The translations under genes were made by a program, and so were the position numbers. Positions 99 to 47,327 of a stretch of DNA of 58,425 bases are shown here, piece by piece; within the stretch, counting starts at the first letter, position 1, and each line of letters begins with the position of its first letter. The stretch covers positions 1 to 58,425 of IMG/VR virus record IMGVR_UViG_3300030376_003371; one strand, 5' to 3'. The stretch is from a virus. Lineage: Duplodnaviria > Caudoviricetes. Below the pieces are notes generated by a model. That model had not been told where the DNA came from. It did not search any database and saw nothing but the letters and a program-made list of their open reading frames with translations.

Positions 99-3000
99 AG
101 CAGGTAAACTTGTTGAGGCAGCAACTTCTAAATAGAATTTTTTAAATGCTTCTTTAGCTTTCTCTTCATCCTTCGTACCCATAGCTCTGTTAGCTAACTT
201 TAATAATCTTTGAAGTTGCATTAATGGAGCAATACTTCTAACGCTTTCTCCTGCATATGGCTTACCTTGTAGTAGGTCTGCAGTTCCACTTATCACTTCA
301 CCCACAATAAACAATGCATTCAAGTTACCTATAATTGCAGCTCTTAATAAATCATCATCATCTTCATCACGCACCGGTCTTAATAATCCCGGAAGTCCTA
401 ATGCAACATACTGAAACAATACCGGAGCAACTAAATGATAAGTAACAAACGTTCTAAGGTTCTGTCCTAACGTTCCTTTACCTGCGTTTCTATCCCAAGC
501 TTTTACTTTACGATATAAATTACGAGTTGATTGTATTTCTTTTCTTAAATATTGTTTAGGTGTAGTCAAGAACATATTCAATCCTCTTTGAAGTGCTCCT
601 GCAGTTTGATAGAAGTCTCTATCTTGTAGGTCCATAGATTGCTGTGTTCTTTTTGTATCTCTTTCAAACTTAACTATAGCTTCTTGCTGAGCTTCCTGTT
701 CAGTCTTTCCTTGCTTTAATGCTTGGTCTTTATAATATAAATAGTTAGGCATACCTCCTAAATAGATTGCCGCCTTATCCCCAAACTTAGTTGTGTACAT
801 AATAAAGTTTACATAGTTATCCCAATACTGATTAGGAACCATCTCAATCATTCCATCATTACTATAAGACTCTATTATCCTTGTTATAGATTGTTTGTTT
901 CTGTCTTGCATGTACACAGAATTCTTGGATATTTCTTTGACAGTCTTTATCATTTGAGGCACACTCTTTAATGAATACTTCAACCAATTTCCATAACCAA
1001 TATCATTACCATAGGTAATCATAGAAGTCAACTGCTTTATCATTACAGTAGGGTTCAGACCAATCCTTGAAAAGATAAACAGATTGTTCATTTTATTTAC
1101 AAACCTGTCTGCTGAATTAGTTCTTATACCTTGGTTAGCAATCTTACCAATCATATTACTAATCAATCTATTAACATAGTCCCCATGAATAGCAGCTATA
1201 GATTCACGCACTTGCTTATTACTAAATATTTTATTTATACTATTGATGGTTTCTCCGTAAGCAGCAAAGTATTCCATGTCACGCAGATAGGTTGACATCA
1301 CATTCATAGAGTTCATCTTTCTAATCGGTAAATTATTTTGTACCCTAGCTTTAGTTGATGAAGTTCCAACTGATGTATTCATTATGCTTTTATCTGCAAG
1401 TAAGTCAAGAGGTTGTTGCTCTATTGGGTTTCCTTGTGGGTCGTTTCGATATATCATACCGGAATAATATCTATTCCATGGCATGTTAGTTCTGTACAAT
1501 GCTTTATATGTGTTGTTGTAATGAGAGTAAAGAGAAGGATAAAATTCATTCACTTGCCAATCACCAAACTCTTTAATACTATCATCCATATTTGCCTCCA
1601 TCTCTTCCATAATTCTAGCAAAGTCTTTCCCAAATGTTGCTTTAAAAGAACCTCTGTTTGCAGGGTCCTTATATAAATTATAGTAGTATAGCATTTCGTT
1701 TTGAGACATCTCTACTTCATTCTCTGCTAATACTTCCTTAAGTATTTGTTTGTTCTTTAAACTTGGGTCGTTGTTAAAATTTTCTTTTGCTTTTGCCACA
1801 GCTTCAGGGTCAAGAACGTAAGCCACTTGTGGTTTGTTGTGAGCTCTTACTTGGTTTCTCCACTTCTTACCATACAATTCTTCAAGTTTAGTAGCAAGTA
1901 TCTCTTCTTGCTGCATCATTCTACCTTTATACATTCTTGTTGAGGCATCAACTCTTGCAGTAACTAACTCTTGAAGTCTACCGCCAAACATTTCTCCCGG
2001 AAGTTTAGATATTAAATCCATCAGTCCATCCAATGCTTCGGTTTCATTGAAGAATTTTTTTACATTTGTCTTAAGAGTATTAACAAACTTTGCAATTATA
2101 TTCTTAGTTCTTTTTTGTTTTTTGTTTCGCAACTTCTGATTCATTGAATCAAGCTCAACTCTAGCATCAGGGTCACCCATGTCAACTTTTTCTCCGGTGA
2201 TATCTTCAATTGCAATTGAAGCTTCATCGTTATACTCGTTGTGTTTATCTTGAAGTTGCTGTTTAAGTTCACTTCTACCCTGCTCAATCATTTCTGTAAG
2301 AGATGCAAGTGCTACATCCAATGACCCTGTTTTATTAACGTCATTGTTCTCCATAGTTAGAGCATTGTTAAGGTTTAACAAAATCTGAATATCAACCAAT
2401 CGACTCATGTCACCTTCCGATAAAACATTTTTTTGACGAATTTGATTGAACTCTTCAGTTAAATTTTTATTTGTATTCTCTATGTCTTCAGCTGTTGCAG
2501 TAGATGAGAGTCTGTCTTTTGCAATCCTCTGTATTCTTTCTTTTATATTAAGACTAATCTTCGCAGCTTTCTTTCTACCTGATTGTTTAGTTTCATACTT
2601 TCCATTCAGGATATTATCTATTTGCTTTTCTAACCTTACGTTATTCTTAGTATTAACAAACTCTATTATTTCATTAAATAAATTTTCTATTTGCGCAGTA
2701 CTACCTGCGTCAGTTATTTGTCTTACAAGCTTCATCACTTCACTACGAGTATATAAATCTGCCGGTAAAGATTTTCTAAGAAAGTTTCTCATCGCAACCT
2801 TTACGCTTTGTAAATCTACAGCACCACGCTTTCTTTGTTGAAGCATTCTTCGAGCCTCAGTAAGTTTCTCTTGTACACTTTCACTTGTTCTTGTACCTAC
2901 ACTTCTTTGAAACTCTACTTGAAGCTGAGCTTGTTTAGTTGTTAACCCTTTACTTCCATCGCCTTCGTTTTTATACTCAGGTTGTTTCTGTAAGTATTCT

Positions 3001-6000
3001 ATAGTTTGGTCCGCTATTTGTTGTTCTGTAAGCTTGACCTTTTTTCTCTTGTTGGAGTTGATAAGCTTTTGCTCAAATGCTTTTACTCTTTTATATAGTT
3101 TAAGTCCTGATTCTACACCACCTTCTATATTGGTAAAGCTTTTAGGAAGAGTTTTAAATAAATTAACATCTACTTCCATTATCTTATTGACTAATTTGGC
3201 AGGATATTTTTTAACTCTTACTAAGAAATCTTTTATTACCTCGTCTCTAAAGTTAGAATCTCTTGACTCATTTATAATATCAGTTATTTCTTTTTGTTGT
3301 CTACCTCTTCTTGAAGTAACTTCTTTTACTCCTGAACCATAAGGTGCTACCTTTTGACTAGTAGTAGTTCTACCTGCACCCTCCATTGACTCTCTCATTT
3401 CCTTTGGCATCAATTCAAATGCATCAATCTTTGTGTCAGGAACACCTACAACTTCTCCAAGAATAGTATTGGTATAAGTAGAATGGTTAGAACCTTCCTT
3501 GACTCCTGTTGGTTTTAACACCATCATGATATCATTTTGTTGGAAGTTGTTCTCTGCATAGAAACCATCTCTAAAAATTTCAGGGTCAATAAAACCATCC
3601 AACTCTTTAACGAGTTTGTGATATGCTGTGTTAGGAGTTTTACCTTGAGCAATATGCGCAATCAAAAAGTTTTTTCTTACTGAACCATCAGCTTCTTTTA
3701 TTTCTTGCCAACTATCATACTCTGTTAGCACATCTCTAACACCCTTAACAGGTTTAGTTTCTAATGCCTTCTCTTTAAATGTAGCGTAGTCGCCAAGCTT
3801 ATCTGTATATTTATCGTATACCTTTTTATTAAACAAGTGACTCTTTGATGGTGAGCCACTAATAATAAATATATAATCAGCTTTGCCTATATTTTTTTCA
3901 AGTGTTTTTTTAGTTAAACTACTTGCCCATATTTCACCTTCTTTTTGTAGTGCGTAACTTGGACCTGCATCTATATCCATCTCTGCATCTAAACCTAATT
4001 GGTCAGCTACCCAAAACCAAACCTTCTGACCTTTGTCTGCAATGGTATCAATTAATGAATCAATATCAATTTTTTTAGCAGAGCTTACTAAGGATAGGGG
4101 GTACGAGTCTTTAAATTTTATCTTCTGTTGTCGCCCTTTACTCTTTGGTTTTACAATAGTAGTTGGATTACCTATTGGGTTTGTACCATTATCAAGTTCT
4201 TCTAATGTAGCTATGTCAGCTTGTTCAATCTCTTCACCGGTTCTAGTTTTTCTAGCTAAGGTGTTTAATAAATCAATTATATCTCTATCAGTTTTTGTAA
4301 ACTGTGAACCTAAGTCAATTCCAACTTTTGAAGCCATACTTTTTATAAAGTTTACAATGGCATTTTTAGATGGCTTAGTTAAACTCTTATAGTCTGATGC
4401 CATCATTCCAAATAATTCTGACAATGCTTCTTCATTAGCTATCGACATACCTTCAGATTGGTATGCTCTTTCAAACGCATCCATTCTGTTTGCCATCAAA
4501 CTATTTTTATCTAACGTCTTACGAACAGAGCCAATCATTTTAGTTACTGCTTCAGCAGTTTTAGTCTCTCCTAAAGTATTAAATAACACAGCATGAAAAA
4601 CCTCATGAGGTACAGTTGTAGCTGTAGCTCCTTCAAGATTAATGTGAATAGTATTATTATCAAAATCAAAAAAACCTCTACCTTCAGGAGCAACTTTATT
4701 AAACTCGTCTATAGATTCATGAAGAACTATTTTTGTCTTAGGTAATATTGTCTTGATAGAGTTGGCTGCTTTGGACGCAATGTCAATCACCATTCCTCTC
4801 ATAGATTTTAAATCAGGTGTAAGCTCACTACCTCTTTTTCCTTTTCTATTAAAGAATAAATTGTTTTGAGTAGTCGTTTCTGTTTGAGTTTCTTCTCCAA
4901 AGAATCCTTCAATATCAGCTCGTTCTTCTGTTGTTACATCAGTATCTTCTTGAACCTGCTCATCAACTTGCTCTTGAACACCAAGCTCAGGAATTGATTG
5001 CTCTAATTTGTTTTGATTTTCTAAGTTTGTTTCCGCTGTACTTTGAATACCTTCAAGAGCAGTATTAATATCATTTACTCTTGCCTGTTCCTTTTTAACT
5101 AGCTCAGGTGCTTTACCTTCCATTTTAGATTCTAAGGTTTGCTTTTCTAATAGTAACTGTAAAGCTTCTTTTTTCTGTTGAGTCGTATAATCTGTAGGTA
5201 CTTTAGGAGCAAGACCTTCTAACTGCTCAAAGTTTTTTAATTCTGCGTCTGCTTCTTTCTGTGTTTTTGTTCCGGCTGCTACCTCTTGTTTTAGTTTGGT
5301 AACAAACATAGTTTTATATTGAGGGTCAGACATGATGCCTTCAAAGATTTTAAAGACCCCATCATCTACTTCAGGCAATTTTCCTCCCGCAGCCATGTTT
5401 GAAACAGCAGGTATCACACCTAATGTAAAACCACCGACAGCTTCTTGAGCACCGGCATACATCATTTGAGATGCAACGTCTATAAATGTATCAGGGTTTT
5501 GAAATAAATTTTTTCCTTTAGATGCATCAAATATTTCTTTAATACCTATCGTTGCGCCTTCTTGCAAGAATCCTGTTTCAAATTCTGCAAGTCCACCTGC
5601 ACCTATTGTAAGAACTCCTCGTGCAACCATCTGCTTAACATCTTGTCTTATAAATTCTTGAAATGTTTTTGCTGTAGTTTTTTCCGTAGATTGACCTAAA
5701 GCTCTAGCAATCACACCGTTTAACAATCCTTTTTGTTGAACAATGTTTCTAAAACCTATAGCTTCTAATGCACCTACTGCAAGACCTACCGGTACTTTAA
5801 CAAAATACTTTTCATTCTCAGTAATCTCATCAAACGCAGGGTCCTTTGACATCTCTTGGTCTATGTGGTCACTAGTAAGAGCATACATCTGTGCTGTTCT
5901 TTGAATCATACCGGGGATTCCTTTACCACCAATCATGGCAGGTAAAGATTCTGCAAGACCTAAAAATGCACCACCCCAAAAACCTTGCTTTTGAAGATTT

Positions 6001-7616
6001 GCCCATTGCTCTGTAGTAGATTGGTCTCCCAACACTTGTACCATACCTGCTCTTGTAGCGTCTAACATTCCCATTTCAGTATCAAAATAATTTGACTGTA
6101 CAGAAAATGGATTACCCGCAGGTCTTACATTACCTGTTGTTCTAAATCTATCATACGCATTTGGACCATAATACTTTATAGCTTTTTTATAGGCATCTTT
6201 AGTTCTGCTTATAGAAGACTCAACTAAATTTTCTCCATCTTCAGTTGTAAGATTACTTAAAATACTTTGAGCCTCTTTAGCATCATATTGTGATAGTGAT
6301 TTGCTTAATGCAATCTTGTCTTCTTCCGTTAGTTCGTTTTTATTAAGTAAACTTTTTATTTCATCTGACCCCTCTCCTTTTCCTATATACTGATACTTTT
6401 CAGGAGACTCTATAAACCTTCTAAGCGCATCATTAGTTATATCACTTTGAAGACTAGCTTCGTTATAACCCATCTGCATAGGATTTACTTCAACAAAAAA
6501 GTCTGTCATTACATCTACTGCTTGTGAAGCGAATGAAGAAGCTCCTTTCATCGCAGCATTCCAAAGACCACCGGACCAAGTACCTTGTGTGCTTTGCATT
6601 TGCACATATCTACCTACCTCTTGGTCAAGTAGTGCACCCTTTTCGGAAAAGGTTTTTTCTTTTTCTTGAAGCTTACTGAAAGCTCCCATCAAATCTTTTT
6701 TCTGATTAATATATGTTTGATAGGCTGCTTTTTTTTCAGGGTTACCTTTTATATCACTAGCAGAAAGACCTGCGAATTGAGCTTCATATAACTTATCAAG
6801 CTCTGCTTTGGCATTTGAAAACTCAACTACTTCTTGTCTAAAGTTTTCTGTCTGCTCATTAAAAAGTTTAACAGTAGCTTCTATTTCTTTTTCATCTCTT
6901 ATTTGCTGATTCTTCTTTTCAATTCTAGAAGTGGTTGCAGCTAGTCTATTTTCTGATTCAACTCTGTTTTTTTCCAAAAAATTTCTAAGCTTTGCAGCTT
7001 CTGCTGTTTCAGTTGCACCCATCATAGGGTCTAAGTCTATAGATATTTTTTCTCCATTTGCAGATTGAACAACCATTGCATCTCCGATACCTGTCTCTTC
7101 AAAAGTAAAACCATAATCATTGAATCTATAGTTTAAATCAGGCACAACGAACTCTTCTTCTTTGTCTATAAGTTTATTGGTAATAGTGCTTAAGCCAACA
7201 TCGAATGGGTCTTCGATTTCATCAGCTAATAGAGTTCCTGCAAAAGGGTCTTCAACTTCTTCCTCTGTAATAGATGATTCCGATGAAACATTTTCTGTCT
7301 CCGATTGTAAAGGTGATTCCAAACCTTCGGGGACTTCGGGTAGATTTGGTTGGTCCAATCCGATTGGATTTTTTTTTTCCGGGTCATCTGTCGAGACAAT
7401 CTCCGTTTCTTCTACAACATTAGTTGAATCTCCAAAGCCAACAAGGGTCTTGAACTGATTAATATCTTTCTGATAACCCTCACCTTTAGCAACATTATAC
7501 ATATTGTTAAGTGCCTCTTCATTAGACCCCATCAAAACTTTAAAGTCTTCAAAAGATTTAGAGTAGCCTTCTGCTTGTGCTAAGCTATATAATTGTTGTA
7601 CTGCCTCTTCGTTCAT
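1..7616 (-). CDS. Giant (~2600 aa) virion ejection/polyvalent protein with a zincin metallopeptidase motif; 5' part, continues across the origin to 58139
   Basis: ATG at 7616 (MNEEAVQQLYSLAQAEGY...). Open frame read by hand to base 1. HEVFH at 4593-4607 followed by EEALSELFG. Last gene of the ejection cluster. Absent from the ORF track because it runs off the edge. Confidence 0.88.
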   Translation of the reverse strand, partial: MNEEAVQQLYSLAQAEGYSKSFEDFKVLMGSNEEALNNMYNVAKGEGYQKDINQFKTLVGFGDSTNVVEETEIVSTDDPEKKNPIGLDQPNLPEVPEGLESPLQSETENVSSESSITEEEVEDPFAGTLLADEIEDPFDVGLSTITNKLIDKEEEFVVPDLNYRFNDYGFTFEETGIGDAMVVQSANGEKISIDLDPMMGATETAEAAKLRNFLEKNRVESENRLAATTSRIEKKNQQIRDEKEIEATVKLFNEQTENFRQEVVEFSNAKAELDKLYEAQFAGLSASDIKGNPEKKAAYQTYINQKKDLMGAFSKLQEKEKTFSEKGALLDQEVGRYVQMQSTQGTWSGGLWNAAMKGASSFASQAVDVMTDFFVEVNPMQMGYNEASLQSDITNDALRRFIESPEKYQYIGKGEGSDEIKSLLNKNELTEEDKIALSKSLSQYDAKEAQSILSNLTTEDGENLVESSISRTKDAYKKAIKYYGPNAYDRFRTTGNVRPAGNPFSVQSNYFDTEMGMLDATRAGMVQVLGDQSTTEQWANLQKQGFWGGAFLGLAESLPAMIGGKGIPGMIQRTAQMYALTSDHIDQEMSKDPAFDEITENEKYFVKVPVGLAVGALEAIGFRNIVQQKGLLNGVIARALGQSTEKTTAKTFQEFIRQDVKQMVARGVLTIGAGGLAEFETGFLQEGATIGIKEIFDASKGKNLFQNPDTFIDVASQMMYAGAQEAVGGFTLGVIPAVSNMAAGGKLPEVDDGVFKIFEGIMSDPQYKTMFVTKLKQEVAAGTKTQKEADAELKNFEQLEGLAPKVPTDYTTQQKKEALQLLLEKQTLESKMEGKAPELVKKEQARVNDINTALEGIQSTAETNLENQNKLEQSIPELGVQEQVDEQVQEDTDVTTEERADIEGFFGEETQTETTTQNNLFFNRKGKRGSELTPDLKSMRGMVIDIASKAANSIKTILPKTKIVLHESIDEFNKVAPEGRGFFDFDNNTIHINLEGATATTVPHEVFHAVLFNTLGETKTAEAVTKMIGSVRKTLDKNSLMANRMDAFERAYQSEGMSIANEEALSELFGMMASDYKSLTKPSKNAIVNFIKSMASKVGIDLGSQFTKTDRDIIDLLNTLARKTRTGEEIEQADIATLEELDNGTNPIGNPTTIVKPKSKGRQQKIKFKDSYPLSLVSSAKKIDIDSLIDTIADKGQKVWFWVADQLGLDAEMDIDAGPSYALQKEGEIWASSLTKKTLEKNIGKADYIFIISGSPSKSHLFNKKVYDKYTDKLGDYATFKEKALETKPVKGVRDVLTEYDSWQEIKEADGSVRKNFLIAHIAQGKTPNTAYHKLVKELDGFIDPEIFRDGFYAENNFQQNDIMMVLKPTGVKEGSNHSTYTNTILGEVVGVPDTKIDAFELMPKEMRESMEGAGRTTTSQKVAPYGSGVKEVTSRRGRQQKEITDIINESRDSNFRDEVIKDFLVRVKKYPAKLVNKIMEVDVNLFKTLPKSFTNIEGGVESGLKLYKRVKAFEQKLINSNKRKKVKLTEQQIADQTIEYLQKQPEYKNEGDGSKGLTTKQAQLQVEFQRSVGTRTSESVQEKLTEARRMLQQRKRGAVDLQSVKVAMRNFLRKSLPADLYTRSEVMKLVRQITDAGSTAQIENLFNEIIEFVNTKNNVRLEKQIDNILNGKYETKQSGRKKAAKISLNIKERIQRIAKDRLSSTATAEDIENTNKNLTEEFNQIRQKNVLSEGDMSRLVDIQILLNLNNALTMENNDVNKTGSLDVALASLTEMIEQGRSELKQQLQDKHNEYNDEASIAIEDITGEKVDMGDPDARVELDSMNQKLRNKKQKRTKNIIAKFVNTLKTNVKKFFNETEALDGLMDLISKLPGEMFGGRLQELVTARVDASTRMYKGRMMQQEEILATKLEELYGKKWRNQVRAHNKPQVAYVLDPEAVAKAKENFNNDPSLKNKQILKEVLAENEVEMSQNEMLYYYNLYKDPANRGSFKATFGKDFARIMEEMEANMDDSIKEFGDWQVNEFYPSLYSHYNNTYKALYRTNMPWNRYYSGMIYRNDPQGNPIEQQPLDLLADKSIMNTSVGTSSTKARVQNNLPIRKMNSMNVMSTYLRDMEYFAAYGETINSINKIFSNKQVRESIAAIHGDYVNRLISNMIGKIANQGIRTNSADRFVNKMNNLFIFSRIGLNPTVMIKQLTSMITYGNDIGYGNWLKYSLKSVPQMIKTVKEISKNSVYMQDRNKQSITRIIESYSNDGMIEMVPNQYWDNYVNFIMYTTKFGDKAAIYLGGMPNYLYYKDQALKQGKTEQEAQQEAIVKFERDTKRTQQSMDLQDRDFYQTAGALQRGLNMFLTTPKQYLRKEIQSTRNLYRKVKAWDRNAGKGTLGQNLRTFVTYHLVAPVLFQYVALGLPGLLRPVRDEDDDDLLRAAIIGNLNALFIVGEVISGTADLLQGKPYAGESVRSIAPLMQLQRLLKLANRAMGTKDEEKAKEAFKKFYLEVAASTSLPAIQIDRFIKNIDKLGEGDTPADVLRILNFSPYV

Positions 7617-40629: not shown

Positions 40630-42228
40630 TTAATTTTTCTTTCTATGCATCGTAATGATTGCATTGGTTGATAATAATGTAACTGCTACGCTAACTGCAT
40701 TTTGTAAAGCGGACCTTGTTACTTTCACCGGGTCTATAACTCCCATCTTTATTAAATCTCCCCACTCTTCATTCTTTACATCTAATCCCTCACCCCATTT
40801 TCGGTCAGGATTCTTTTCATACAAGTAAACGTCCATTCCTGCGTTACGCAGTATTTGAACTAACGGAGCTTGTAACGCATTTCCTAAAATTGCGTAAGCA
40901 ATTTTTTTTGTTGAATTTTTGTCACACTCTTTAGACTTGTCTAAATATTCCTCGCCTATTGTAAACAATGACAATCCTCCCCCGGGGAGTATGCCTTCTT
41001 CTAGAGCTGACTTAACTGCACATACTGCATCGTCAACTCTATCGTATAGTTCTTTTTGTTCGAGGTCTGTATTACCTCCAACATAGATTACTCCTATACC
41101 TCCTGTAAGGGAAGCGATTCTTTTTTCTATAAAGCTTCTCAGCTGTTTATCTTTAGCTGCACTATGTTGAACCCATAACTCTTCTACTCTTGTATCTACT
41201 GCATCTTGATTTTCTGTAGCATCATCCTTAATGATGATACTTGAGTCACGACCAACTATCACCTTGGAACAATGACCCAAGTCACCAAAGTTTATCAAGC
41301 TCAAATCATCTCCGGTTTCGCCACTAAAGTAAGTAGCTCCAACTGCAAGAGCAATGTCGTTCATAAGTTCATGTTGTCTATAACCAAAGTCAGGTGGTGC
41401 AATGTTTACAATCTTAAGACTGTTCTTCATTACATTCGCTGCCATTGTGTTAATGAATCCTTGAGAGCATGGAGCAATAATCAATAACTTCTTTTGTTCA
41501 TTGATAATTGTTTTCAATACATTCTCAATTTGTAATATACTATTTATTTCGGTATCACATACAAGCACATGCACATCCTCATGTATACATTCGTCATGCT
41601 TATGGTTATTAATAAACAAGTGTGATGTCCACCCTCTATCTATCTTAATACCCTTTGTGCTTTCGTAATACGTCTCATGGGTTTTGGATTTCTCCACAGT
41701 CACTATCCCATCTTTACCAACTTCTTTATATACATCAGCTATTTGTTTTCCAATCTTCTCATCGTTGTTGGCTGAGATAACTGCAACATCTTTTAATTTA
41801 TTACCTGCTATCTTTTTACCTTTCTTGTGAAGCTGACTAATAATAGATTGAGATTCTTCCTGTAGTATTTTTAATACCTCAGTATTGTTGGTCTCCTCAT
41901 CTATTAATTCCATACCGGCTTTGACTAAAGCTTCGGTAAGTACAATTGCTGTTGTCGTTCCATCTCCTGCTGAGGTTGCAGTCTTATCAGCTGCTTCCTT
42001 CATGATACGAACCGCTAGGTTCTCCACAGCGTCTAAAAGAAAAATAGACTTAGCCACAGTCACACCATCCTTGGTTACTGTGATTCCATGTGTATGTTCT
42101 TGAGATTCAATGAGGACTGTATTTCCTCGGGGACCCAATGTAGACTTTACTGCCTTAGCTATTTGTGTTATACCGCTAAGTAACTTTTCTCTACCATCGG
42201 AATCGAAGTGTAGTTGTTTTGGATTCAT
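40630..42228 (-). CDS. groEL: Chaperonin GroEL
   Basis: TLGPRG, TKDGVTVAK, AGDGTTTA, DRVDDAVCAVKSALEEGILPGGG, GVIDPVKV; no GGM tail. Confidence 0.97.
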   Translation of the reverse strand: MNPKQLHFDSDGREKLLSGITQIAKAVKSTLGPRGNTVLIESQEHTHGITVTKDGVTVAKSIFLLDAVENLAVRIMKEAADKTATSAGDGTTTAIVLTEALVKAGMELIDEETNNTEVLKILQEESQSIISQLHKKGKKIAGNKLKDVAVISANNDEKIGKQIADVYKEVGKDGIVTVEKSKTHETYYESTKGIKIDRGWTSHLFINNHKHDECIHEDVHVLVCDTEINSILQIENVLKTIINEQKKLLIIAPCSQGFINTMAANVMKNSLKIVNIAPPDFGYRQHELMNDIALAVGATYFSGETGDDLSLINFGDLGHCSKVIVGRDSSIIIKDDATENQDAVDTRVEELWVQHSAAKDKQLRSFIEKRIASLTGGIGVIYVGGNTDLEQKELYDRVDDAVCAVKSALEEGILPGGGLSLFTIGEEYLDKSKECDKNSTKKIAYAILGNALQAPLVQILRNAGMDVYLYEKNPDRKWGEGLDVKNEEWGDLIKMGVIDPVKVTRSALQNAVSVAVTLLSTNAIITMHRKKN

Positions 42229-42254
42229 TTTAAATTTAATTAGATTATACTTAG

Positions 42255-42262
42255 CAAATATA
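42255..42262 (-). promoter_or_regulatory. Bacteroidota -7 promoter element for groEL
   Basis: TATATTTG upstream of 42228. Confidence 0.65.
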
Positions 42263-42286
42263 AAAAAATAATTTTTAATATGAATA

Positions 42287-42473
42287 TGTTGAGATGTCGA
42301 CTTTTTATCTCCCTTACTCTCTCTCTCTTATTATACACATGAATATTTTATTTCCATATACGAGGCTTTAAACTTAACATAGTTAACATTTTATAATTAA
42401 CATATTGATTATCAATTAGTTACAAAACTAAAGTCAACATAAAGTTAACATAAAGTCAACATAAGGATAACAT
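42287..42473. other. Origin-like element, copy 1 (11-bp iterons plus IHF-consensus sites)
   Basis: AAAGTCAACAT/AAAGTTAACAT/AAAGTCAACAT/AAGGATAACAT at 42430-42473; WATCARNNNNTTR on both strands at 42398-42422; core shared with 51536-51690. Confidence 0.6.
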
Positions 42474-42477
42474 ATAT

Positions 42478-42512
42478 AAAAAGAAAAGAGGCTACCAAGT
42501 GGTAACCTCTCT
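42478..42512 (-). terminator. Probable intrinsic terminator
   Basis: AGAGGTTACC-ACTT-GGTAGCCTCT followed by TTTCTTTTT on the minus strand. Confidence 0.7.
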
Positions 42513-42571
42513 TTATATGGTTAGTCAAAACACTACTAAAAACTAACCTAACACAAACTACTCGCTATAGT

Positions 42572-42772
42572 CTATCTTTTAAATAAGTCAATGTTAGCTT
42601 GGGATAACTCATTACCCTCTGCTATCATTTGAACCTTTTCATATCTTTTTGCGGAAGCTCTCATTTGAGCTAACTTAGTAATTCCCATCTCAGGTGATGG
42701 TGCCATATTAATAAGTCTTCCGTCTTTTACTTCATAACCTTGCATTGAAGGTGGAATATTAAATCGTCTCAT
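42572..42772 (-). CDS. Hypothetical protein
   Basis: 66 aa with its own TATCTTTG promoter (42795-42802) and terminator. Confidence 0.7.
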   Translation of the reverse strand: MRRFNIPPSMQGYEVKDGRLINMAPSPEMGITKLAQMRASAKRYEKVQMIAEGNELSQANIDLFKR

Positions 42773-43156
42773 AGTATTATCTTTTGTTCACCTACAAAGA
42801 TAGTAAAATTTTATTTAGATACTCAGGGCATTTGGGTTATATATAGCGACACGCAACCCGACCCCCTCAGGAAAACGATATTTTTTTTGTTTGACCTTGA
42901 CATTTTCAAAATCGCATGTCTGATTTTTTTGCCTTTTTTTTTATGGGGTACCCTACCCCCTCTGTTAGTTGTAGTATTTTCTCCCTGTATACGTTACACC
43001 ACCATTCACCCCCTGTTGACCTCTGTCCTTCCCTCCGTTAGACCTTCCCCTAACCCACGCATGAACTGAACAAAAGTTTTAAAGAAGACCTTCCCTTCGT
43101 TAGTACCTGTATGAAGTCATTTGACCTAAAACAAAACTACATAATCTCACATAATT

Positions 43157-43181
43157 TAATTCATTGATAATCAGCGAGTTA
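43157..43181. promoter_or_regulatory. Double IHF-consensus site upstream of the early promoter
   Basis: AATCAGCGAGTTA (+) and TATCAATGAATTA (-) both match WATCARNNNNTTR. Confidence 0.5.
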
Positions 43182-43287
43182 AAAAGAAAATAACAAAATA
43201 ATTAAAAAAAAGTTTGGTAGTTAAATATATTTAGACGAGATTTGTTAAAAATTTAATAATTATTTAAACATTTAAACACTTACAATT

Positions 43288-43473
43288 ATGACACATTTAA
43301 ACACAAACGCAGTAACTGATAACACAATCACAAACAAGGCACAAGAGCAATTCCTTCTTGAAGACATAGTAGAGAGAGATTTTGCTTTAGGACTGATAAC
43401 TGAAGACGAGTACGAAGTAGAGATACAGAAAATCTACTATAGCTTTGCAGATTTATACGGATTTCCTGCGTAA
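43288..43473 (+). CDS. First early gene, small acidic protein
   Basis: 61 aa; leader TAAACACTTACAATTATG. Confidence 0.75.
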   Translation: MTHLNTNAVTDNTITNKAQEQFLLEDIVERDFALGLITEDEYEVEIQKIYYSFADLYGFPA

Positions 43474-43496
43474 ATCAAACAGGGGTCTTTGACCCC

Positions 43497-43546
43497 TCTG
43501 TCCAAGGGAATGTCCCTTGCTGATGAGACGAAGAAGTCGAAACAGA
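43497..43546 (+). ncRNA. Type III hammerhead ribozyme (HH1), predicted cleavage after C43502
   Basis: UCU-GUC, stem I CAAGGG/CCCUUG, CUGAUGA, stem II GAC/GUC, GAAA, CAGA closing stem III; complete canonical core. Confidence 0.92.
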
Positions 43547-43574
43547 AAATAATATATATATAAACACTACAATT

Positions 43575-43718
43575 ATGAAATCAATTTTAAACTTTAACAT
43601 CGTTGAAAAAGCAATCATGTTCACTCTAACGTCACTTGTGGCAGTAAGTTGGACAATGTTAGTCTTCCATATGTTAACAGAAGGAATTGTTGCATCCTCA
43701 TTCGGTATTTACGGATAA
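43575..43718 (+). CDS. Small membrane peptide (47 aa) between the two hammerheads, not in the ORF track
   Basis: MKSILNFNIVEKAIMFTLTSLVAVSWTMLVFHMLTEGIVASSFGIYG; leader TAAACACTACAATTATG nearly identical to that of 43288. Confidence 0.8.
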   Translation: MKSILNFNIVEKAIMFTLTSLVAVSWTMLVFHMLTEGIVASSFGIYG

Positions 43719-43724
43719 ATCAAC

Positions 43725-43752
43725 AGAACCTGAGCAAGTTCTTAAACTGCTT
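43725..43752 (+). ncRNA. Predicted H-type pseudoknot directly 5' of HH2
   Basis: Stem 1 AGAAC/GUUCU, stem 2 GAGCA/UGCUU, linker UAAAC. Confidence 0.6.
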
Positions 43753-43801
43753 CTGTCGTAAGGTGTGTACCTTACCTGATGAAGCAAAAGCAGAAACAGA
43801 A
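43751..43801 (+). ncRNA. Type III hammerhead ribozyme (HH2, variant stem II), predicted cleavage after C43757
   Basis: UUCU-GUC, stem I GUAAGGU/ACCUUAC, CUGAUGA, A-GC-AAAA-GC-A, GAAA, CAGAA. Confidence 0.8.
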
Positions 43802-43822
43802 ACTTAAATTAAATCTTAAACA

Positions 43823-44758
43823 ATGAGTAACACAAACGCAGTCGCAAAGAAAGTAAAAGCTACACTTCTTGAAGGACTTAAAAAAGATGGCTTACAATGG
43901 TTCAAACCATGGAAATCAGGATTAAATTTTCCTATCAATAACAAATCAGGTAGAGCATACCGAGGTTTTAATACTTTCATCCTGAACGCTGAGATGAAAG
44001 AGAAAGAGTACAAGTTTAACGAATGGGATACCTTCAAGAGCATATCATCAAGAGGTGGTAAGGTCAACAAAGGTGAGAAAGGAACAGACGTTTATTTTTG
44101 GTTAATATCTTATACTGCCATGGGTGGTTCAGGTAAATGGTACAGAACCAAAGCCGAATGTATGAAGAATGAAAATTGTACTGAAGCAGATATATTTACT
44201 AATTTCAATCTGAGATTCTACAGAGTTTGGAACATCGCACAATGTGAAGGTTTGTCTCCAAGAAGAATAGAAGACGAGACGAAAGTTGTACACGAGCCAA
44301 TCGAAAGTTGCGAGAATATAGTATCTAACTATAAAAAGATAGCTAAGAAGTTGCAAATCGTTGAATTAGAGCAAGATAAAGCATACTATTCACCTTCGAA
44401 AGATAAGATAGTGATGCCACTAAGAAGTCAGTTTAGTAAATTAGATAAATTCTATCACACACTATTTCACGAAATGGTTCATTCAACAGGTCATGACTCA
44501 AGGTTAAATCGTGAAGGAGTTGCTACGGCAAATATGTTAAACAAGACCAAACATGATTATGCATTTGAAGAGTTAATTGCTGAGTCAGGTGCAATGATGT
44601 TGTCAGGTATGTCAGGAATTGAAACCAAAGACGAAGACAAGCAGAGTCAAGCGTATGTTAACGGATGGGTCAAAGCAGTAGAGAAAGCCAACGAGAAAGC
44701 AGTTGTATCTGCTCTAACGCAGTCAGCCAAGGCAGTTGACTACATCTTAGGAGAGTAA
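43823..44758 (+). CDS. ardC: ArdC-like antirestriction/ssDNA-binding protein with a zincin domain
   Basis: WFKPW...PINNKSGRAYRGFN...WDTF...GGKVNKGEKG...VWNIAQCEG; AYYSPSKDKIVMP; TLFHEMVHSTGH..RLNR; YAFEELIAE. Confidence 0.92.
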   Translation: MSNTNAVAKKVKATLLEGLKKDGLQWFKPWKSGLNFPINNKSGRAYRGFNTFILNAEMKEKEYKFNEWDTFKSISSRGGKVNKGEKGTDVYFWLISYTAMGGSGKWYRTKAECMKNENCTEADIFTNFNLRFYRVWNIAQCEGLSPRRIEDETKVVHEPIESCENIVSNYKKIAKKLQIVELEQDKAYYSPSKDKIVMPLRSQFSKLDKFYHTLFHEMVHSTGHDSRLNREGVATANMLNKTKHDYAFEELIAESGAMMLSGMSGIETKDEDKQSQAYVNGWVKAVEKANEKAVVSALTQSAKAVDYILGE

Positions 44759-44768
44759 TCTCCTTACC

Positions 44769-44813
44769 TTCAGGAATGGTTGCAAGGGGGTTCGATTCCC
44801 CCTCCTGAAACTA
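44769..44813 (+). ncRNA. Minimal tRNA mimic TL1 (acceptor stem plus T arm only)
   Basis: TTCAGGA/TCCTGAA 7-bp stem, 10-nt linker ATGGTTGCAA, GGGGG-TTCGATT-CCCCC, then A-CTA. Confidence 0.75.
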
Positions 44814-44835
44814 ATTTAATTTAATATATATAACT

Positions 44836-44949
44836 ATGAATGCAAAACGTTTAGGCAAGTTAGCCAAGAAAATTCAAAACATCATGTTGGTTGTGATACC
44901 ATCGTATTTTATAATCAGGATACTTGTATCCGTAATCTTTGGAGTATGA
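44836..44949 (+). CDS. Small membrane peptide (37 aa), not in the ORF track
   Basis: MNAKRLGKLAKKIQNIMLVVIPSYFIIRILVSVIFGV; ATGA overlap with the next gene. Confidence 0.7.
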   Translation: MNAKRLGKLAKKIQNIMLVVIPSYFIIRILVSVIFGV

Positions 44950-45173
44950 TATATATAATTAGCATGAAATCAATGTGGGGTAATTACAGGACGTTCCTAA
45001 AGGACTTCAATGATGAGCAACACATGAACAATTGGGTGAACCTTATGATTAGAAAAGGTCATAAGATTATAGGTGTACAACGTCAGTACATGAACATCGC
45101 AAAACATCGCAAGGAAATGCAGTTGGAACATAACCAAGCTAAAGCAAGGCGAATAAGAAAATATAATATATAA
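44946..45173 (+). CDS. Hypothetical early protein
   Basis: 75 aa, translationally coupled. Confidence 0.7.
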   Translation: MIYIISMKSMWGNYRTFLKDFNDEQHMNNWVNLMIRKGHKIIGVQRQYMNIAKHRKEMQLEHNQAKARRIRKYNI

Positions 45174-45193
45174 CTGCGAAAAACACAGAAAAA

Positions 45194-45225
45194 CTTGCAT
45201 ATGTCGAAATTTTGTCGTATGTTTG
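45194..45225 (+). promoter_or_regulatory. Bacteroidota sigma-A promoter
   Basis: CTTG ... TATGTTTG (45218-45225), about 18 nt before TL2. Confidence 0.7.
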
Positions 45226-45242
45226 TCGAAATTCTGATTAAA

Positions 45243-45316
45243 AGTAGGAGCATGGTGCAAGTAGAGGGAGTTGAAAACCCTTGAAAATTGAAGTTCGAAT
45301 CTTCATCCTACAACTA
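45243..45316 (+). ncRNA. Degenerate tRNA-like element TL2
   Basis: GTAGGA/TCCTAC acceptor, GCATGGTGC mini D-arm, GAGGG-AGTTGAAAA-CCCTT arm, TGAAG-TTCGAAT-CTTCA T arm, then A-A-CTA. Confidence 0.7.
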
Positions 45317-45334
45317 AGATTAAATATATATAAC

Positions 45335-45694
45335 ATGGAAAAAAAACACTACATCTTTGATTACCTCAGCACAGCTGACGGATACGAAATCGGTTGGCTA
45401 CATGAGGACACACAAAAAAATATTAGCGACCCTGATTCAGAATTATTCTATGATAAATATGGGATGATGGAGTCTGCGAAAGAGTTAGTTCTTGAGGGTC
45501 ATGAGTTTACTAACTATTGGTTAGATGAATCTGACATTGATGAATGGATTGAAGAGAGAGATAGATGCGAAACCTGTGAAGGAGAAGGCACTATCATCTG
45601 TCCAACTTATGATGACCCATACAACGAAGAACCTTGTATGGATTGTCAGGATGATGGTTCAGATTTAGCTTACGAATTATCAGTAGGCAAATAA
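45335..45694 (+). CDS. Acidic protein with a C-terminal CxxCxGxG...CxxC zinc finger
   Basis: CETCEGEG...CMDC; start moved to ATG 45335. Confidence 0.75.
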   Translation: MEKKHYIFDYLSTADGYEIGWLHEDTQKNISDPDSELFYDKYGMMESAKELVLEGHEFTNYWLDESDIDEWIEERDRCETCEGEGTIICPTYDDPYNEEPCMDCQDDGSDLAYELSVGK

Positions 45695-45709
45695 TATATA
45701 TATAATACA

Positions 45710-45802
45710 GAACAGGTGCTACCTTGGTGGTCGGAGTGGTTTGTAAGATTTGACACATACGTTAGTTTAAAAACAGAGGTTCGAATCCTCGCCTGTTCTC
45801 TA
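45710..45802 (+). ncRNA. tRNA-like element TL3 with a non-canonical interior
   Basis: GAACAGG/CCTGTTC 7-bp acceptor, GAGG-TTCGAAT-CCTC T arm, then T-CTA. Confidence 0.65.
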
Positions 45803-45821
45803 ATTTTTAAACACTACATAT

Positions 45822-46934
45822 ATGAAACAAATAGTTCACAATGATTATTCTTATTTGGATAAAATAGAATGGTCAGAAAACGTTCAGAATATGGTGGTTA
45901 GTTTCCACCATCTGACAGGAGACAGGATAGGTCAGAGAATTGATATTCCTGTTCAATTTAATCATGGCAAGATTTGGGATGCCTTAATCGAAAACAAAGT
46001 GTTTGTTGACAACGAGGAACTGAAAGCAAAAGTCCTCCACAGAACAGACCAAGCAGTTAAAAACAGAATCGCAAAGAAAGTCACGAACTACAACAATGGG
46101 GTAGATATATATAATGCCCTGACTAAACTTGAGGTAAAGGATAGACGTAAAGATAGATATACTGATGGCAGGTTTGATGGCAAGGTTGAGCCAAGCGAAA
46201 TAATAAAGACAGACTACGAGAATTATCTATCTGATATTAACTTCAGCTTCAAGATTGATTGTGAGTATGATTACGATTACAGGAGGTATGAGGGTAGATA
46301 TACATATAAGAACTCTTATGCTCATGAGTCTGTGACCTCTGAGTATTGTAATATTGAAATAAAATTTAATATTAAAAGTTCATGTGAAGGAACAGGTCTG
46401 TTTTATAAAGTGCCACACTTTACCTTAGACTTTGTTTTCACCAACAAATCGAATCAAGAAGACAAGATTGATTTGATTAGGAGTAGTGCTTTTGATAAGG
46501 TTTGGAAGAACGGAAAGCATCACACTAAAATGACATTTCAAAGCTACTACCTTCGTGACAACTCTCGTTATGTAAACCTAAATACATTTCTTGTTTACGC
46601 AAGAGAGAAATCACAAACCAATAAAGATATGTATAAGCGTGAGATAATGGAGACAACCAACAAAGACAAAGTGCAACAAGAGATTGCTGATAAGTATCCA
46701 AATGCAAATGTGTTTGTGAGAAGCTCCTACAAGAGAGACCTCACCCATCACGATGAATATTGGGGAAGGTATAGTAAGGATTGTATTTGTGTAGAGTTCA
46801 AAGACAAGAGCTATATATTATATTCAATTGCTGATGCTAAAAGAGGAGACCAAGAAATCATTGGGGTGTACGACTCAGAGTATAAAAAACCTGAGCAAGA
46901 GGAGTTAATAGAATTAATAACTAACAGAAACTAA
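45822..46934 (+). CDS. Hypothetical early protein (370 aa)
   Basis: Long ORF; leader TAAACACTACATATATG. Confidence 0.8.
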   Translation: MKQIVHNDYSYLDKIEWSENVQNMVVSFHHLTGDRIGQRIDIPVQFNHGKIWDALIENKVFVDNEELKAKVLHRTDQAVKNRIAKKVTNYNNGVDIYNALTKLEVKDRRKDRYTDGRFDGKVEPSEIIKTDYENYLSDINFSFKIDCEYDYDYRRYEGRYTYKNSYAHESVTSEYCNIEIKFNIKSSCEGTGLFYKVPHFTLDFVFTNKSNQEDKIDLIRSSAFDKVWKNGKHHTKMTFQSYYLRDNSRYVNLNTFLVYAREKSQTNKDMYKREIMETTNKDKVQQEIADKYPNANVFVRSSYKRDLTHHDEYWGRYSKDCICVEFKDKSYILYSIADAKRGDQEIIGVYDSEYKKPEQEELIELITNRN

Positions 46935-46946
46935 ATATATATAATT

Positions 46947-47327
46947 ATGGGAAGATTTTATTACGGAGACATCGAAGGTAAATTTATGTTCGCAGTCCAA
47001 CCAAGTGATGCAGGATGCAGATTTGGTGCAGAAGAAGACGAGCCATACGCAGTAGATTATTCATTAGACAGAGATAGCTATGACCATCTGTGCAAGGAAT
47101 TAAAATCTATTGAAGATTCAGGTGCAGTCAAAAGAGTTAAGCATATGTTTGACTCACTCGAGAAAATAGAAAACAAAAGAAGTTATGGAGATGAGGATTG
47201 TGAGAAATATAAAGTAACCCCATTAGATTTATCGGAGTATGCTGATTGGTTGATGGGAACAAAGATGAAAGAGTTCTTTGACGACAATCCTGACGAAGAC
47301 ATATTAAACTTTAACGCAGAAATATAA
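46947..47327 (+). CDS. Hypothetical protein
   Basis: MGRFYYGDIEGKFMFAVQPSD... Confidence 0.8.
   Translation: MGRFYYGDIEGKFMFAVQPSDAGCRFGAEEDEPYAVDYSLDRDSYDHLCKELKSIEDSGAVKRVKHMFDSLEKIENKRSYGDEDCEKYKVTPLDLSEYADWLMGTKMKEFFDDNPDEDILNFNAEI

What the first reader, a model, noticed from the sequence alone, without database searches (positions are those of the whole stretch)
44769..44813. 41-nt natural tRNA minihelix right after ardC
A perfect 7-bp acceptor stem is stacked on a perfect 5-bp T stem with a TTCGATT loop. The D and anticodon arms are replaced by 10 nt (ATGGTTGCAA) that keep a TGG able to form the elbow contact. It cannot decode. It could be a minimal RNase P/Z processing signal or a decoy for tRNA-targeting defence proteins. 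A second hairpin (AGGAGA-GTAA-TCTCCT) covers the ardC stop.
Basis: partly seen in the sequence, partly recalled or inferred. Interest (0 to 1): 0.7.

Follow-up and report, generated by a model that had tools for sequence, protein, structure and literature searches.

The report
Phage tRNA-like minihelix, likely RNA cut-site
The 41-base hairpin after the phage's anti-restriction gene is one copy of a widespread, previously uncatalogued tRNA look-alike that probably tells the host's tRNA-trimming enzymes where to cut phage RNA.

Summary
Window 44769-44809 folds as a 12-bp coaxial helix with a UUCGAUU T-loop and a stemless D-loop-like linker, 10 nt after an ArdC-like gene. The window is a complete marine phage contig.

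It is not a decayed tRNA. An exact pattern scan found the same 41-nt architecture in 28 of 41 matching IMG/VR loci, and 72 of 78 distinct metagenome matches have it. Eleven of 12 base pairs covary. Comparison corrects the register to 6 bp + A + 9 nt + 6 bp. It also adds a conserved N-C-(U/A)-A tail that resembles CCA. Rfam 15 has no family for it.

Two swaps suggest the function. In close relatives the slot 3' of ardC holds a type III hammerhead instead. Directly 3' of GOLLD RNAs in larger phages, either this minihelix or a true tRNA sits 6-9 nt away. What a hammerhead, a tRNA and this element share is that each specifies an RNA cleavage site.

Best reading (about 0.6): a minimal signal for host RNase P, perhaps with RNase Z, that cuts phage transcripts, as mascRNA and plant mitochondrial t-elements do. 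A decoy or small-RNA role stays open; tandem non-coding arrays favour it. No cleavage has been shown.

The parts
43495..43548 (+). Hammerhead type III-like ribozyme 1. Predicted cleavage is after C43502, and a hairpin (43481-43497) precedes it.
   Evidence: Rfam RF00008 gives 35.3 bits, E 2.6e-4 to 2.9e-5, below the gathering score of 48.5. My descriptor finds all three stems plus the CUGAUGA/GAAA core.
43575..43718 (+). Small ORF (47 aa, hydrophobic) lying between the two hammerheads.
43751..43801 (+). Hammerhead type III-like element 2, 21 nt before the ardC ATG. Predicted cleavage is after C43757. Stem II is atypical: an A.A mismatch in the first pair, then 2 bp.
   Evidence: Found by descriptor only; cmscan at E<=5 did not report it. 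The descriptor gives just these 2 hits in the whole window on both strands, against 0.04 per shuffled window.
43823..44758 (+). ArdC-like anti-restriction gene (311 aa).
   Evidence: Pfam ArdcN and MPTase-PolyVal; PHROG 7245 'anti-restriction protein', E 1.3e-58.
44749..44764 (+). Hairpin AGGAGA-GUAA-UCUCCU spanning the ardC stop codon. It is the likely 3'-terminal hairpin of the upstream cleavage product.
   Evidence: Relatives have an equivalent hairpin at the same place with a different sequence (read by eye). Across 82 distinct instances the 40 nt upstream of the minihelix fold with mean z -1.37, against -0.48 for the 40 nt downstream.
44769..44809 (+). tRNA-like minihelix. P1 is 44769-44774 paired with 44804-44809. 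A is at 44775. The D-loop-like linker AUGGUUGCA is 44776-44784. P2 is 44785-44790 paired with 44798-44803. The T-loop UUCGAUU is 44791-44797. Predicted RNase P cut lies between 44768 and 44769.
   Evidence: Covariance model R1 scores it 63.5 bits, and it is the only copy in the window; the next hit scores 10.8 bits.
44810..44813 (+). Discriminator-like A followed by CUA. This is the family-wide N-C-(U/A)-A tail.
   Evidence: In 83 distinct instances, position +2 is C in 64, +3 is U in 42, A in 23 and C in only 8, and +4 is A in 56.
44836..44949 (+). Next small ORF (37 aa, hydrophobic). Its ATG lies 26 nt after the minihelix.
45709..45799 (+). Second, longer tRNA-like element. It has an 8-bp acceptor-like stem AGAACAGG/CCUGUUCU, a GAGG-UUCGAAU-CCUC arm and the same NCUAAUUU tail. 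It lies before ORF 45822-46934.
   Evidence: Sub-threshold tRNA-Sec match of 22.5 bits. ARAGORN did not call it. It is conserved in L002, L003 and L021, and the acceptor stem covaries.

Best explanation
The element is an RNA-level 'cut here' module that mimics only the part of a tRNA read by tRNA end-processing enzymes. That part is the 12-bp acceptor/T-arm stack, a T-loop capped by a GG-containing D-loop substitute, and a CCA-like N-C-(U/A)-A tail.

Inferred mechanism. The rightward early operon is transcribed through ardC. Host RNase P cleaves between 44768 and 44769. The ardC mRNA is left ending in the stop-spanning hairpin plus 4 nt. The downstream RNA begins with the minihelix. The minihelix either stays there as a structured 5' cap or is released by a second cut after A44810 (RNase Z or exonucleases).

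With the two hammerheads upstream of ardC, this would turn the operon into separately stable mRNAs. Elsewhere the same module would define the 3' end of GOLLD RNAs.

Shown here: the structure, its conservation and covariation, its strand and its intergenic placement, and its interchange with a hammerhead and with tRNAs.

Inferred: which enzyme acts, where it cuts, and what the cut does to the RNAs.
For: 1. tRNA-specific features are under selection. Eleven of 12 pairs show changes on both sides. 99.1% of cells are paired, against 52% in shuffles and 44-53% when the partners are slid. The G:C pair closing the loop is invariant in 28 of 28. The helix total stays at 12 bp even in a 5+7 variant in L009. 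GG is kept in all 13 variant linkers printed and in the array copies.

2. The tail N-C-(U/A)-A is conserved, and C is avoided at +3.

3. It acts on the sense strand as RNA. G.U pairs occur. All copies within a record share one strand. Of 28 instances, 22 have a same-strand ORF ending within 150 nt upstream, and 14 of those lie 1-16 nt after the stop.

4. Slot equivalence with a ribozyme. The region 3' of ardC could be read in the window and 8 relatives. It holds the minihelix in 4 (window, L002, L003, L005) and a type III hammerhead in 2: L004 (39.5 bits) and L006 (descriptor only). The other 3 have other hairpins. The 5' side of ardC carries a hammerhead in the window, L002 (48.5 bits), L004 and L005.

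5. Slot equivalence with a tRNA. Five loci have the minihelix 6 nt after a GOLLD RNA. These amount to 2 distinct versions whose P1 stems differ at paired positions. Acinetobacter phage AM24 and an uncultured 642-kb phage instead have a canonical tRNA 9 nt after GOLLD.

6. No terminator-like site lies on the + strand between 42200 and 47000.

7. Discriminator, N-1 and stem sequences vary freely. This argues against an aminoacylation identity and for recognition by shape.

8. Background from PMC4919913 (passages seen). RNase P measures the T-stem-loop/acceptor stack. It cleaves non-tRNA substrates such as tmRNA and MALAT1, and it needs a T-loop-like structure but not the D-loop.
Against: No cleavage product has been seen. 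No RNA data cover the element.

The linker AAUGGUUGCA is conserved more strongly than RNase P is thought to need. The D-loop is described as dispensable (PMC4919913). This hints at a further or different partner.

Bacteroidales and Duncaniella MAG contigs carry four tandem copies 105-155 nt apart, separated by purine-rich spacers that I read by eye as non-coding. That looks more like a small-RNA gene array than like punctuation between cistrons.

In 16 other minihelix loci (149,914 bases) no ribozyme reached Rfam's gathering score. The link with hammerheads is therefore confined to the ardC phage clade.

Only 1 of the hammerheads cited passes Rfam's cut-off. Two have a mismatched first pair in stem II.

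The invariance of the linker and loop in my main alignment is partly imposed by the search pattern. I also preselected its rows for at least 5 of 6 pairs per helix.

The tail lacks C75, which bacterial type A RNase P normally pairs with (recalled).
Confidence: 0.6

Rival explanations
1. The released 41-45-nt minihelix is itself the functional product. It would be a small tRNA-elbow/acceptor mimic, perhaps completed with CCA. It would titrate or mislead a host factor that binds tRNA acceptor ends or elbows, for example defence toxins that modify tRNA 3' ends or a tRNA-processing or modifying enzyme. Processing would only serve to liberate it. This reading is compatible with the best explanation rather than exclusive of it.
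For: Four tandem copies with spacers that I read as non-coding occur in L052, L053 and L057. There are up to 7 copies per phage record. The linker is conserved more strongly than simple RNase P recognition should require. The tail is CCA-like. In jumbo phages the element sits at the head of tRNA arrays, where its neighbours are matured into stable RNAs. In the window it lies beside an anti-defence gene.
Against: A hammerhead replaces it at the same slot, and a hammerhead cannot supply a tRNA-like product. There is no anticodon arm, so it cannot decoy anticodon nucleases. Flanking genes are otherwise unrelated to defence: only 3 of 20 neighbouring ORFs have any Pfam match (terS, terL, HNH). Stems and discriminator vary freely.
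Confidence: 0.2
2. It works as a 3'-terminal tRNA-like cap. Only the 3' cut occurs, so the upstream mRNA or GOLLD RNA ends in the minihelix. The minihelix would protect against 3' exonucleases or recruit translation factors, as the tRNA-like 3' ends of plant RNA viruses do.
For: The tail resembles CCA, with the RNase Z anti-determinant CCA avoided (that CCA blocks RNase Z is recalled). The element sits 1-16 nt after stop codons in 14 of 28 cases.
Against: A separate hairpin already lies just upstream. It would be redundant if the minihelix stayed attached. The hammerheads that replace the element cut at their own 5' edge, so the ribozyme body goes to the downstream fragment. The 6-9-nt spacing from GOLLD is the same for true tRNAs, which are cleaved away from what precedes them.
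Confidence: 0.07
3. It is a new class of small self-cleaving ribozyme that happens to use a T-loop. That would explain why it swaps with hammerheads.
For: It occupies the same slot as a hammerhead. It has about 19 conserved unpaired nucleotides in 41 nt. New ribozyme classes have been found by searching near hammerhead-associated genes (PMC5737381, passages).
Against: Every conserved feature has a direct tRNA counterpart: the UUCGAnU loop, the G:C closing pair, GG, a 12-bp stack and an NCNA tail. It also swaps with real tRNAs 3' of GOLLD. The closest Rfam model, although below threshold, is the RNase P/Z-processed mascRNA (19.6 bits).
Confidence: 0.05
4. It is a non-functional or DNA-level feature: a tRNA gene that lost its D and anticodon arms, an attP core copied from a host tRNA 3' end, or a promoter or origin hairpin.
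For: The T-arm is tRNA-like. Three of the records that carry it are classed as proviruses.
Against: The architecture is fixed at 41 nt, with 63 distinct acceptor stems and 49 distinct T stems. Both helices covary. There are several copies per genome on one strand. G.U pairs would be A.C mismatches on the other strand. The exact 24-nt 3' half is absent from IMG/VR. Only 7 matches were found in 185,579 prokaryote genomes.
Confidence: 0.03

Closest known systems
mascRNA/menRNA, the tRNA-like elements at the 3' ends of MALAT1 and NEAT1 (Rfam RF01684)
   Same: It is a tRNA-like fold inside a longer transcript with no decoding role. RNase P cleavage at its 5' side creates the 3' end of the upstream RNA (function recalled; Wilusz 2008 appears in the reference list of PMC4919913). 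It is the best, though sub-threshold, Rfam match to the window element. The arrangement of GOLLD followed by a minihelix parallels MALAT1 followed by mascRNA.
   Different: mascRNA belongs to vertebrate nuclei. It keeps a D-like hairpin and an anticodon-like arm (56 model positions), whereas this element is 41 nt with neither. The score of 19.6 bits is far below the gathering score of 42.5, so the element is not a member of that family.
Plant mitochondrial t-elements
   Same: They are tRNA-like structures beside protein genes that contribute to mRNA 5' and 3' end formation (PMC1920247; title and start of abstract seen in a search listing only).
   Different: They are organellar and heterogeneous, and are often degenerate whole tRNAs. 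They are not a single conserved 41-nt motif, and none is known from phages.
tRNA-like domain of tmRNA
   Same: It has an acceptor stem plus T-arm, with a D-loop substitute that lacks a D stem. It is an RNase P substrate (PMC4919913). The window's T-arm matches the tmRNA model's T-arm (16.7 bits for 17 nt).
   Different: In tmRNA the two halves are separated by roughly 300 nt that include the tag reading frame. tmRNA also carries alanine identity (recalled). Here the stems vary freely and there is no mRNA-like part.
Multiple hammerhead ribozymes flanking ardA in an Agrobacterium tumefaciens prophage (Perreault et al. 2011, PMC3088659)
   Same: RNA-cleaving elements bracket an anti-restriction gene within a polycistronic phage transcript. 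Those ribozymes cleaved in vitro, and in vivo in E. coli (passages seen). Here hammerhead-like elements lie 5' of ardC and the minihelix, or a hammerhead in relatives, lies 3' of it.
   Different: The gene there is ardA, not ardC, and all the elements are hammerheads. No tRNA-like element appears in the passages I saw. Its Figure S2 and other supplements were not seen.
Synthetic acceptor/T-arm minihelix substrates and engineered tRNA-spacer arrays
   Same: The laboratory finding is that a T-stem-loop/acceptor stack is enough for RNase P recognition (PMC4919913). Engineered transcripts exploit tRNAs as cut sites (recalled).
   Different: Those are designed molecules. This is a natural, conserved family with an added D-loop mimic and an NC(U/A)A tail.

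Membership tests
Canonical tRNA gene (RF00005) | Cloverleaf with D arm, anticodon arm and anticodon | tested here: not met
   ARAGORN finds 0 genes in the window. There is no RF00005 hit at gathering score or at E<=10 on 44720-44860. Only 10 nt lie between the acceptor and T stems.
Canonical tRNA gene (RF00005) | Acceptor/T-arm coaxial stack of 12 bp, a UUCRANY T-loop and a G53:C61 closing pair | tested here: met
   The register is 6+6 bp (5+7 in L009). The loop is UUCGAUU, with UUCGACU and UUCGAAU as variants. The closing pair is G:C in 28 of 28.
mascRNA-menRNA (RF01684) | Score at or above the family's gathering threshold | tested here: not met
   19.6 bits against a threshold of 42.5, E 0.058 on a 141-nt search.
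RNase P/RNase Z-processed tRNA-like elements (a functional class) | Cleavage by RNase P at the 5' end of the acceptor-like stem, and by RNase Z or exonucleases after the discriminator | not testable with these tools
   No RNA run holds the stretch. The contigs laid on it cannot show RNA ends.
RNase P/RNase Z-processed tRNA-like elements (a functional class) | Lies within a longer transcript, on the same strand as its neighbours, where RNA ends are needed | tested here: met
   Intergenic and co-oriented placement. Interchange with a hammerhead. Interchange with a tRNA 3' of GOLLD.
tmRNA (RF00023) | tRNA-like domain joined to a tag-encoding mRNA-like domain | tested here: not met
   Only the 17-nt T-arm aligns (model positions 347-363). 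ARAGORN reports no tmRNA.
Hammerhead ribozyme type III (RF00008), for the flanking elements at 43495-43548 and 43751-43801 | CUGANGA and GAAA cores, three stems with stem III open, and an NUH cleavage triplet | tested here: met
   Descriptor results. There are exactly 2 hits in the window, against 0.04 per shuffled window.
Hammerhead ribozyme type III (RF00008), for the flanking elements | Rfam gathering score of 48.5 bits | tested here: not met
   Element 1 scores 35.3 bits. Element 2 is not reported at E<=5. Among the relatives, only L002's copy reaches 48.5 bits.
Intrinsic terminator | GC-rich hairpin followed by a U tract | tested here: not met
   No + strand terminator-like site lies in 42200-47000. 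ACUAAUUUAAUUU follows the minihelix, not a U run.
attP core derived from a host tRNA 3' end | Sequence identity to a host tRNA 3' part, present as a single copy next to an integrase | tested here: inconclusive
   The exact 24-nt 3' half has 0 matches in IMG/VR. Other phages carry several copies, and the stems covary, which argues against this. I did not search host tRNAs with the 3' half, and I did not look for an integrase in the window.

The most novel reading that the evidence does not exclude
Phages of many lineages encode a 41-nt 'elbow-only' tRNA mimic with two uses. It is a portable cut site, dependent on host RNase P, that is interchangeable with hammerheads and real tRNAs, including for setting the 3' end of GOLLD nanocage RNAs. 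Once released and completed at its NC(U/A)A tail, it is also an abundant small RNA that soaks up a host factor which reads tRNA acceptor ends or elbows, such as a defence toxin that modifies tRNA 3' ends. The tandem arrays would then be decoy factories.
Probability: 0.2. Interest if true: 0.9.

Novelty: new variant of a known kind. Interest (0 to 1): 0.75.

Why it matters
tRNA-like processing signals inside longer transcripts are established for vertebrate lncRNAs and plant mitochondria. To my knowledge they are not established as a conserved, named motif in phages or bacteria. This element has more than 80 distinct natural sequences with strong covariation. It has no Rfam family, and I found no description of it in eight literature searches.

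If it is an RNase P/Z signal, three things follow. Phages would be outsourcing operon dicing to an essential host enzyme that the host cannot easily change. The long-noted closeness of GOLLD RNAs to tRNAs would be explained as 3'-end formation. And nature would supply a 41-nt cut-site module much smaller than a tRNA for building multi-gene transcripts.

If instead the released RNA is the active part, it would be a new kind of phage small RNA aimed at tRNA-binding host factors. Either outcome can be tested directly with a 100-nt transcript and purified RNase P.

Tried and rejected
- **Expression data.** No RNA holder is listed for window 43300-46000. I laid four runs on it. Two metatranscriptome runs gave nothing. 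Two 'RNA?' runs gave only short, low-depth contigs of relatives, which cannot show RNA ends. No conclusion is drawn.
- **Cultured relatives.** blastn of the ardC region against 50,697 phage records found no match. The Bacteroidales array also found none. GOLLD-bearing Acinetobacter phages and an uncultured phage gave no full R1 match in the 3 loci fetched. I therefore found no cultured phage that carries the minihelix. The phage collection cannot be scanned with a covariance model here.
- **tRNA remnant or attP.** The exact 24-nt 3' half gave 0 hits in IMG/VR. Rejected on covariation and copy number.
- **Link to ardC or to defence genes.** Of 20 flanking ORFs from other loci, only 3 had any Pfam match: terS-like, terL and an HNH endonuclease. 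Rejected as a general association.
- **General co-occurrence with ribozymes.** No ribozyme reached gathering score in 16 other minihelix loci. Rejected as a general rule.
- **Promoter reading.** The sigma-70 scan shows no + strand site between 44196 and 45677. The host's promoter type is unknown, so this is weak evidence.
- **Literature.** Searches found no description of this motif. PMC5737381's main text mentions none. Its Supplementary File 1, which holds all 224 motif diagrams, and Weinberg et al. 2015 (PMC4509812, not held) could not be checked and might contain it.
- **First hammerhead descriptor.** It placed stem III wrongly and was replaced by the one.

Full report
**What the window is.** The window is an entire IMG/VR virus record of 58,425 bases, estimated 99% complete. 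Public runs labelled marine metagenome hold it. The minus strand, up to about 42.2 kb, carries portal, large terminase and virion proteins and a Cpn60-family chaperonin. The plus strand, from about 43 kb, carries small early-type ORFs followed by primase/helicase-like genes. ORF 43823-44758 is an ArdC-like anti-restriction protein.

**The observation.** RNAfold predicts the stop-spanning hairpin (44749-44764) and the minihelix (44769-44809) as the minimum-energy and centroid structure. The z-score is only -2.28, and 6 of 200 shuffles fold as well. ARAGORN finds no tRNA and Rfam finds nothing at gathering score. A permissive search of the 141 nt around the element gave mascRNA-menRNA as the top full-length hit, at 19.6 bits against a threshold of 42.5. 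mascRNA is a tRNA-like processing element.

**Conservation near ardC.** Nine IMG/VR loci encode ArdC relatives at 39-78% identity. Eight of them extend past the stop codon. Three (L002, L003, L005) have the same element 10-12 nt after the stop. In these the linker AUGGUUGCA(A/G), the loop UUCGAUU and the tail NCUA are unchanged, but the stems differ: TTCGAG/CTCGAA, GCTGAG/CTCAGC and TCCCTG/CAGGGA, with T stems GGTGG, AGGGG and AGATG. The hairpin across the stop codon is also kept with different sequences (read by eye).

**A family, not a remnant.**
- The exact pattern ATGGTTGCA-N6-TTCGATT matched 41 IMG/VR loci.
- Of these, 28 loci have at least 5 of 6 pairs in both helices: 27 distinct sequences, or 28 with the window. 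The other 13 have at most 3 of 6 pairs in each helix, so the split is clean.
- On the 28 distinct sequences, 99.1% of 336 cells pair, against 52.2% in shuffles (0 of 500 shuffles reach it) and 44-53% with slid partners. Eleven of 12 pairs change on both sides. The twelfth, the G:C pair closing the loop, is invariant.
- Two caveats apply. The pattern fixes the linker and loop, and I preselected the rows for pairing.
- A tighter 19-base pattern gave 105 metagenome stretches. Among the 78 distinct matches that I examined, 59 were perfect 6+6 and 13 were 6+5. They had 63 distinct acceptor stems and 49 distinct T stems.
- The same pattern matched only 7 contigs among 185,579 prokaryote genomes. All 7 score 56-62 bits with my model. 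The motif therefore appears far more often in viral and metagenome contigs than in the prokaryote genome set.

**Refined anatomy.**
- The base before the T stem covaries with the base after it, and the preceding A is invariant. The register is therefore 6 bp, A, a 9-nt linker, 6 bp, a 7-nt loop, and 12 nt returning.
- Covariance model R1 found further copies with variant linkers: AUUGGAUGCA, GAUGGUCGCA, AAUGGUUCA, CAUGGUGUCCA and AAUGGUUGAA. GG followed by U or A is always kept, and the total is always 12 bp, including a 5+7 variant in L009.
- The linker reads like a D-loop without its stem.
- After a variable discriminator, position +2 is C in 64 of 83 distinct instances. Position +3 is U in 42, A in 23 and C in only 8. 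Position +4 is A in 56. The tail resembles CCA with the middle C avoided.

**Placement.**
- Copies lie on the strand of the flanking ORFs, and all copies in a record share a strand.
- There are 1-7 copies per record. Of the 33 records searched, 28 have at least one; the 5 without are all ArdC relatives. The window has one copy.
- Fourteen of 28 instances start 1-16 nt after a stop codon. The next start codon is typically 15-45 nt downstream.
- Neighbouring proteins are mostly unannotated. Exceptions are a position between the small and large terminase genes and a position before an HNH endonuclease. The element is therefore not specific to ardC.
- The 40 nt upstream fold better than shuffles (mean z -1.37; 34 of 82 below -1.5). 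The 40 nt downstream do not (mean z -0.48).

**First swap: hammerhead.**
- In L004 the slot 3' of ardC holds a type III hammerhead (39.5 bits, E 3.3e-5). In L006 it holds one that only my descriptor finds, because its stem II has a mismatched first pair. L007, L009 and L010 have other hairpins there.
- The 5' side of ardC carries a hammerhead in L002 (48.5 bits, at threshold), L004 (36.4 bits) and L005 (21 bits).
- The window has two such elements. One is at 43495-43548 (35.3 bits). The other is at 43751-43801 and is found by the descriptor only. These are the only 2 descriptor hits in the window, against 0.04 per shuffled window.
- In the window, ardC is therefore bracketed by a hammerhead-like element and the minihelix.
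- Each hammerhead would cut at its own 5' edge, a few nt after a hairpin. That is the same geometry as an RNase P cut 4 nt after the window's stop-spanning hairpin.
- Perreault et al. 2011 reported active hammerheads flanking ardA in an Agrobacterium prophage (PMC3088659, passages).

**Second swap: tRNA.**
- Rfam found GOLLD RNAs ending 6 nt before the minihelix in L037 and L030. A profile search of all held loci added L130, L144 and L149.
- Four of these five share one minihelix. L030's has a different, still paired P1.
- In Acinetobacter phage AM24 and in an uncultured 642-kb phage, a canonical tRNA starts 9 nt after the homologous GOLLD end.
- Published work notes that GOLLD lies near tRNA islands but does not explain why (10.1101/2024.12.08.627333 and PMC5737381, passages).

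**Interpretation.** A hammerhead, a tRNA and this element share one property: each specifies an RNA cleavage site. Taken with the tRNA-specific conserved features and the freely varying identity positions, this makes a host RNase P (and perhaps RNase Z) signal the best-supported mechanism, at about 0.6. RNase P is known to measure the T-stem-loop/acceptor stack and to cut non-tRNA substrates (PMC4919913, passages). The scan found no + strand terminator-like site across 42.2-47 kb, which is consistent with long transcripts that need processing.

**What argues otherwise.**
- Nothing shows cleavage.
- The linker is more conserved than RNase P should need.
- Gut Bacteroidales contigs carry four tandem copies with purine-rich, indel-rich spacers that I read as non-coding. 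This suggests the released RNA may matter in itself.
- Ribozymes accompany the motif only in the ardC clade.

**Known or new.** There is no Rfam 15 family for it. Eight literature searches found no description. Supplementary motif catalogues and Weinberg et al. 2015 could not be checked. I rate it a new variant of a known kind: a tRNA-like processing element, here in a minimal phage form.

Noticed in passing
L037:5876-6337(-), L030:3780-4238(-), L130, L144, L149; compare L164:2272-2722 and L166:2399-2887: GOLLD RNAs (Rfam 275-307 bits) are followed after 6 nt by the minihelix. In Acinetobacter phage AM24 and an uncultured 642-kb phage they are followed after 9 nt by a canonical tRNA. This suggests that GOLLD 3' ends are made by RNase P cleavage.
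   Followed up: partly
L057:1779-2160, L052:779-1082, L053:7201-7505(-): Four minihelices lie in tandem, 105-155 nt apart, after a gene and before the next ATG. The spacers are purine-rich (AGTGAAG-like repeats) and differ by indels between relatives. L052 is labelled a Bathyarchaeota MAG, yet across the aligned stretch it is nearly identical to the Bacteroidales contig L053.
   Followed up: partly
window 45709-45799 (+): A 91-nt tRNA-like element that ARAGORN does not call. It has an 8-bp acceptor-like stem, a T-arm and the same NCUAAUUU tail. It is conserved in L002, L003 and L021, with a covarying acceptor stem and an insert of variable length. It may be a second processing element or an odd tRNA.
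   Followed up: partly
83 distinct minihelix instances; window 44810-44813: The 3' tail N-C-(U/A)-A is conserved, but C is rare at the middle position (8 of 83), as if a full CCA were selected against.
   Followed up: partly
window 43751-43801; L006 about 1290-1345; L005 about 2926-2978: These hammerhead-like elements have a mismatched first pair in stem II (A.A or U.U) and Rfam's model misses or barely scores them. They could be a tolerated variant or inactive copies.
   Followed up: no
window 40630-42228 (-): The phage encodes a Cpn60/GroEL-family chaperonin (Pfam E 2.8e-56), at the end of the minus-strand gene block next to the divergent early region.
   Followed up: no
window 43550-43563, 44823-44835, 45690-45705; also in L002-L004: An ATATATATA(A) run recurs just before start codons and beside the RNA elements. 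It could be a promoter or a leader motif for an unknown host.
   Followed up: no
window 3-7616 (-): A giant ORF of more than 2,537 aa runs off the contig end and has no PHROG match at E<=1e-5.
   Followed up: no
L013:7578-7619, L029, L038: In three related phage contigs the minihelix lies between a gp3-like small terminase gene and the large terminase gene, so it also occurs in late operons.
   Followed up: no
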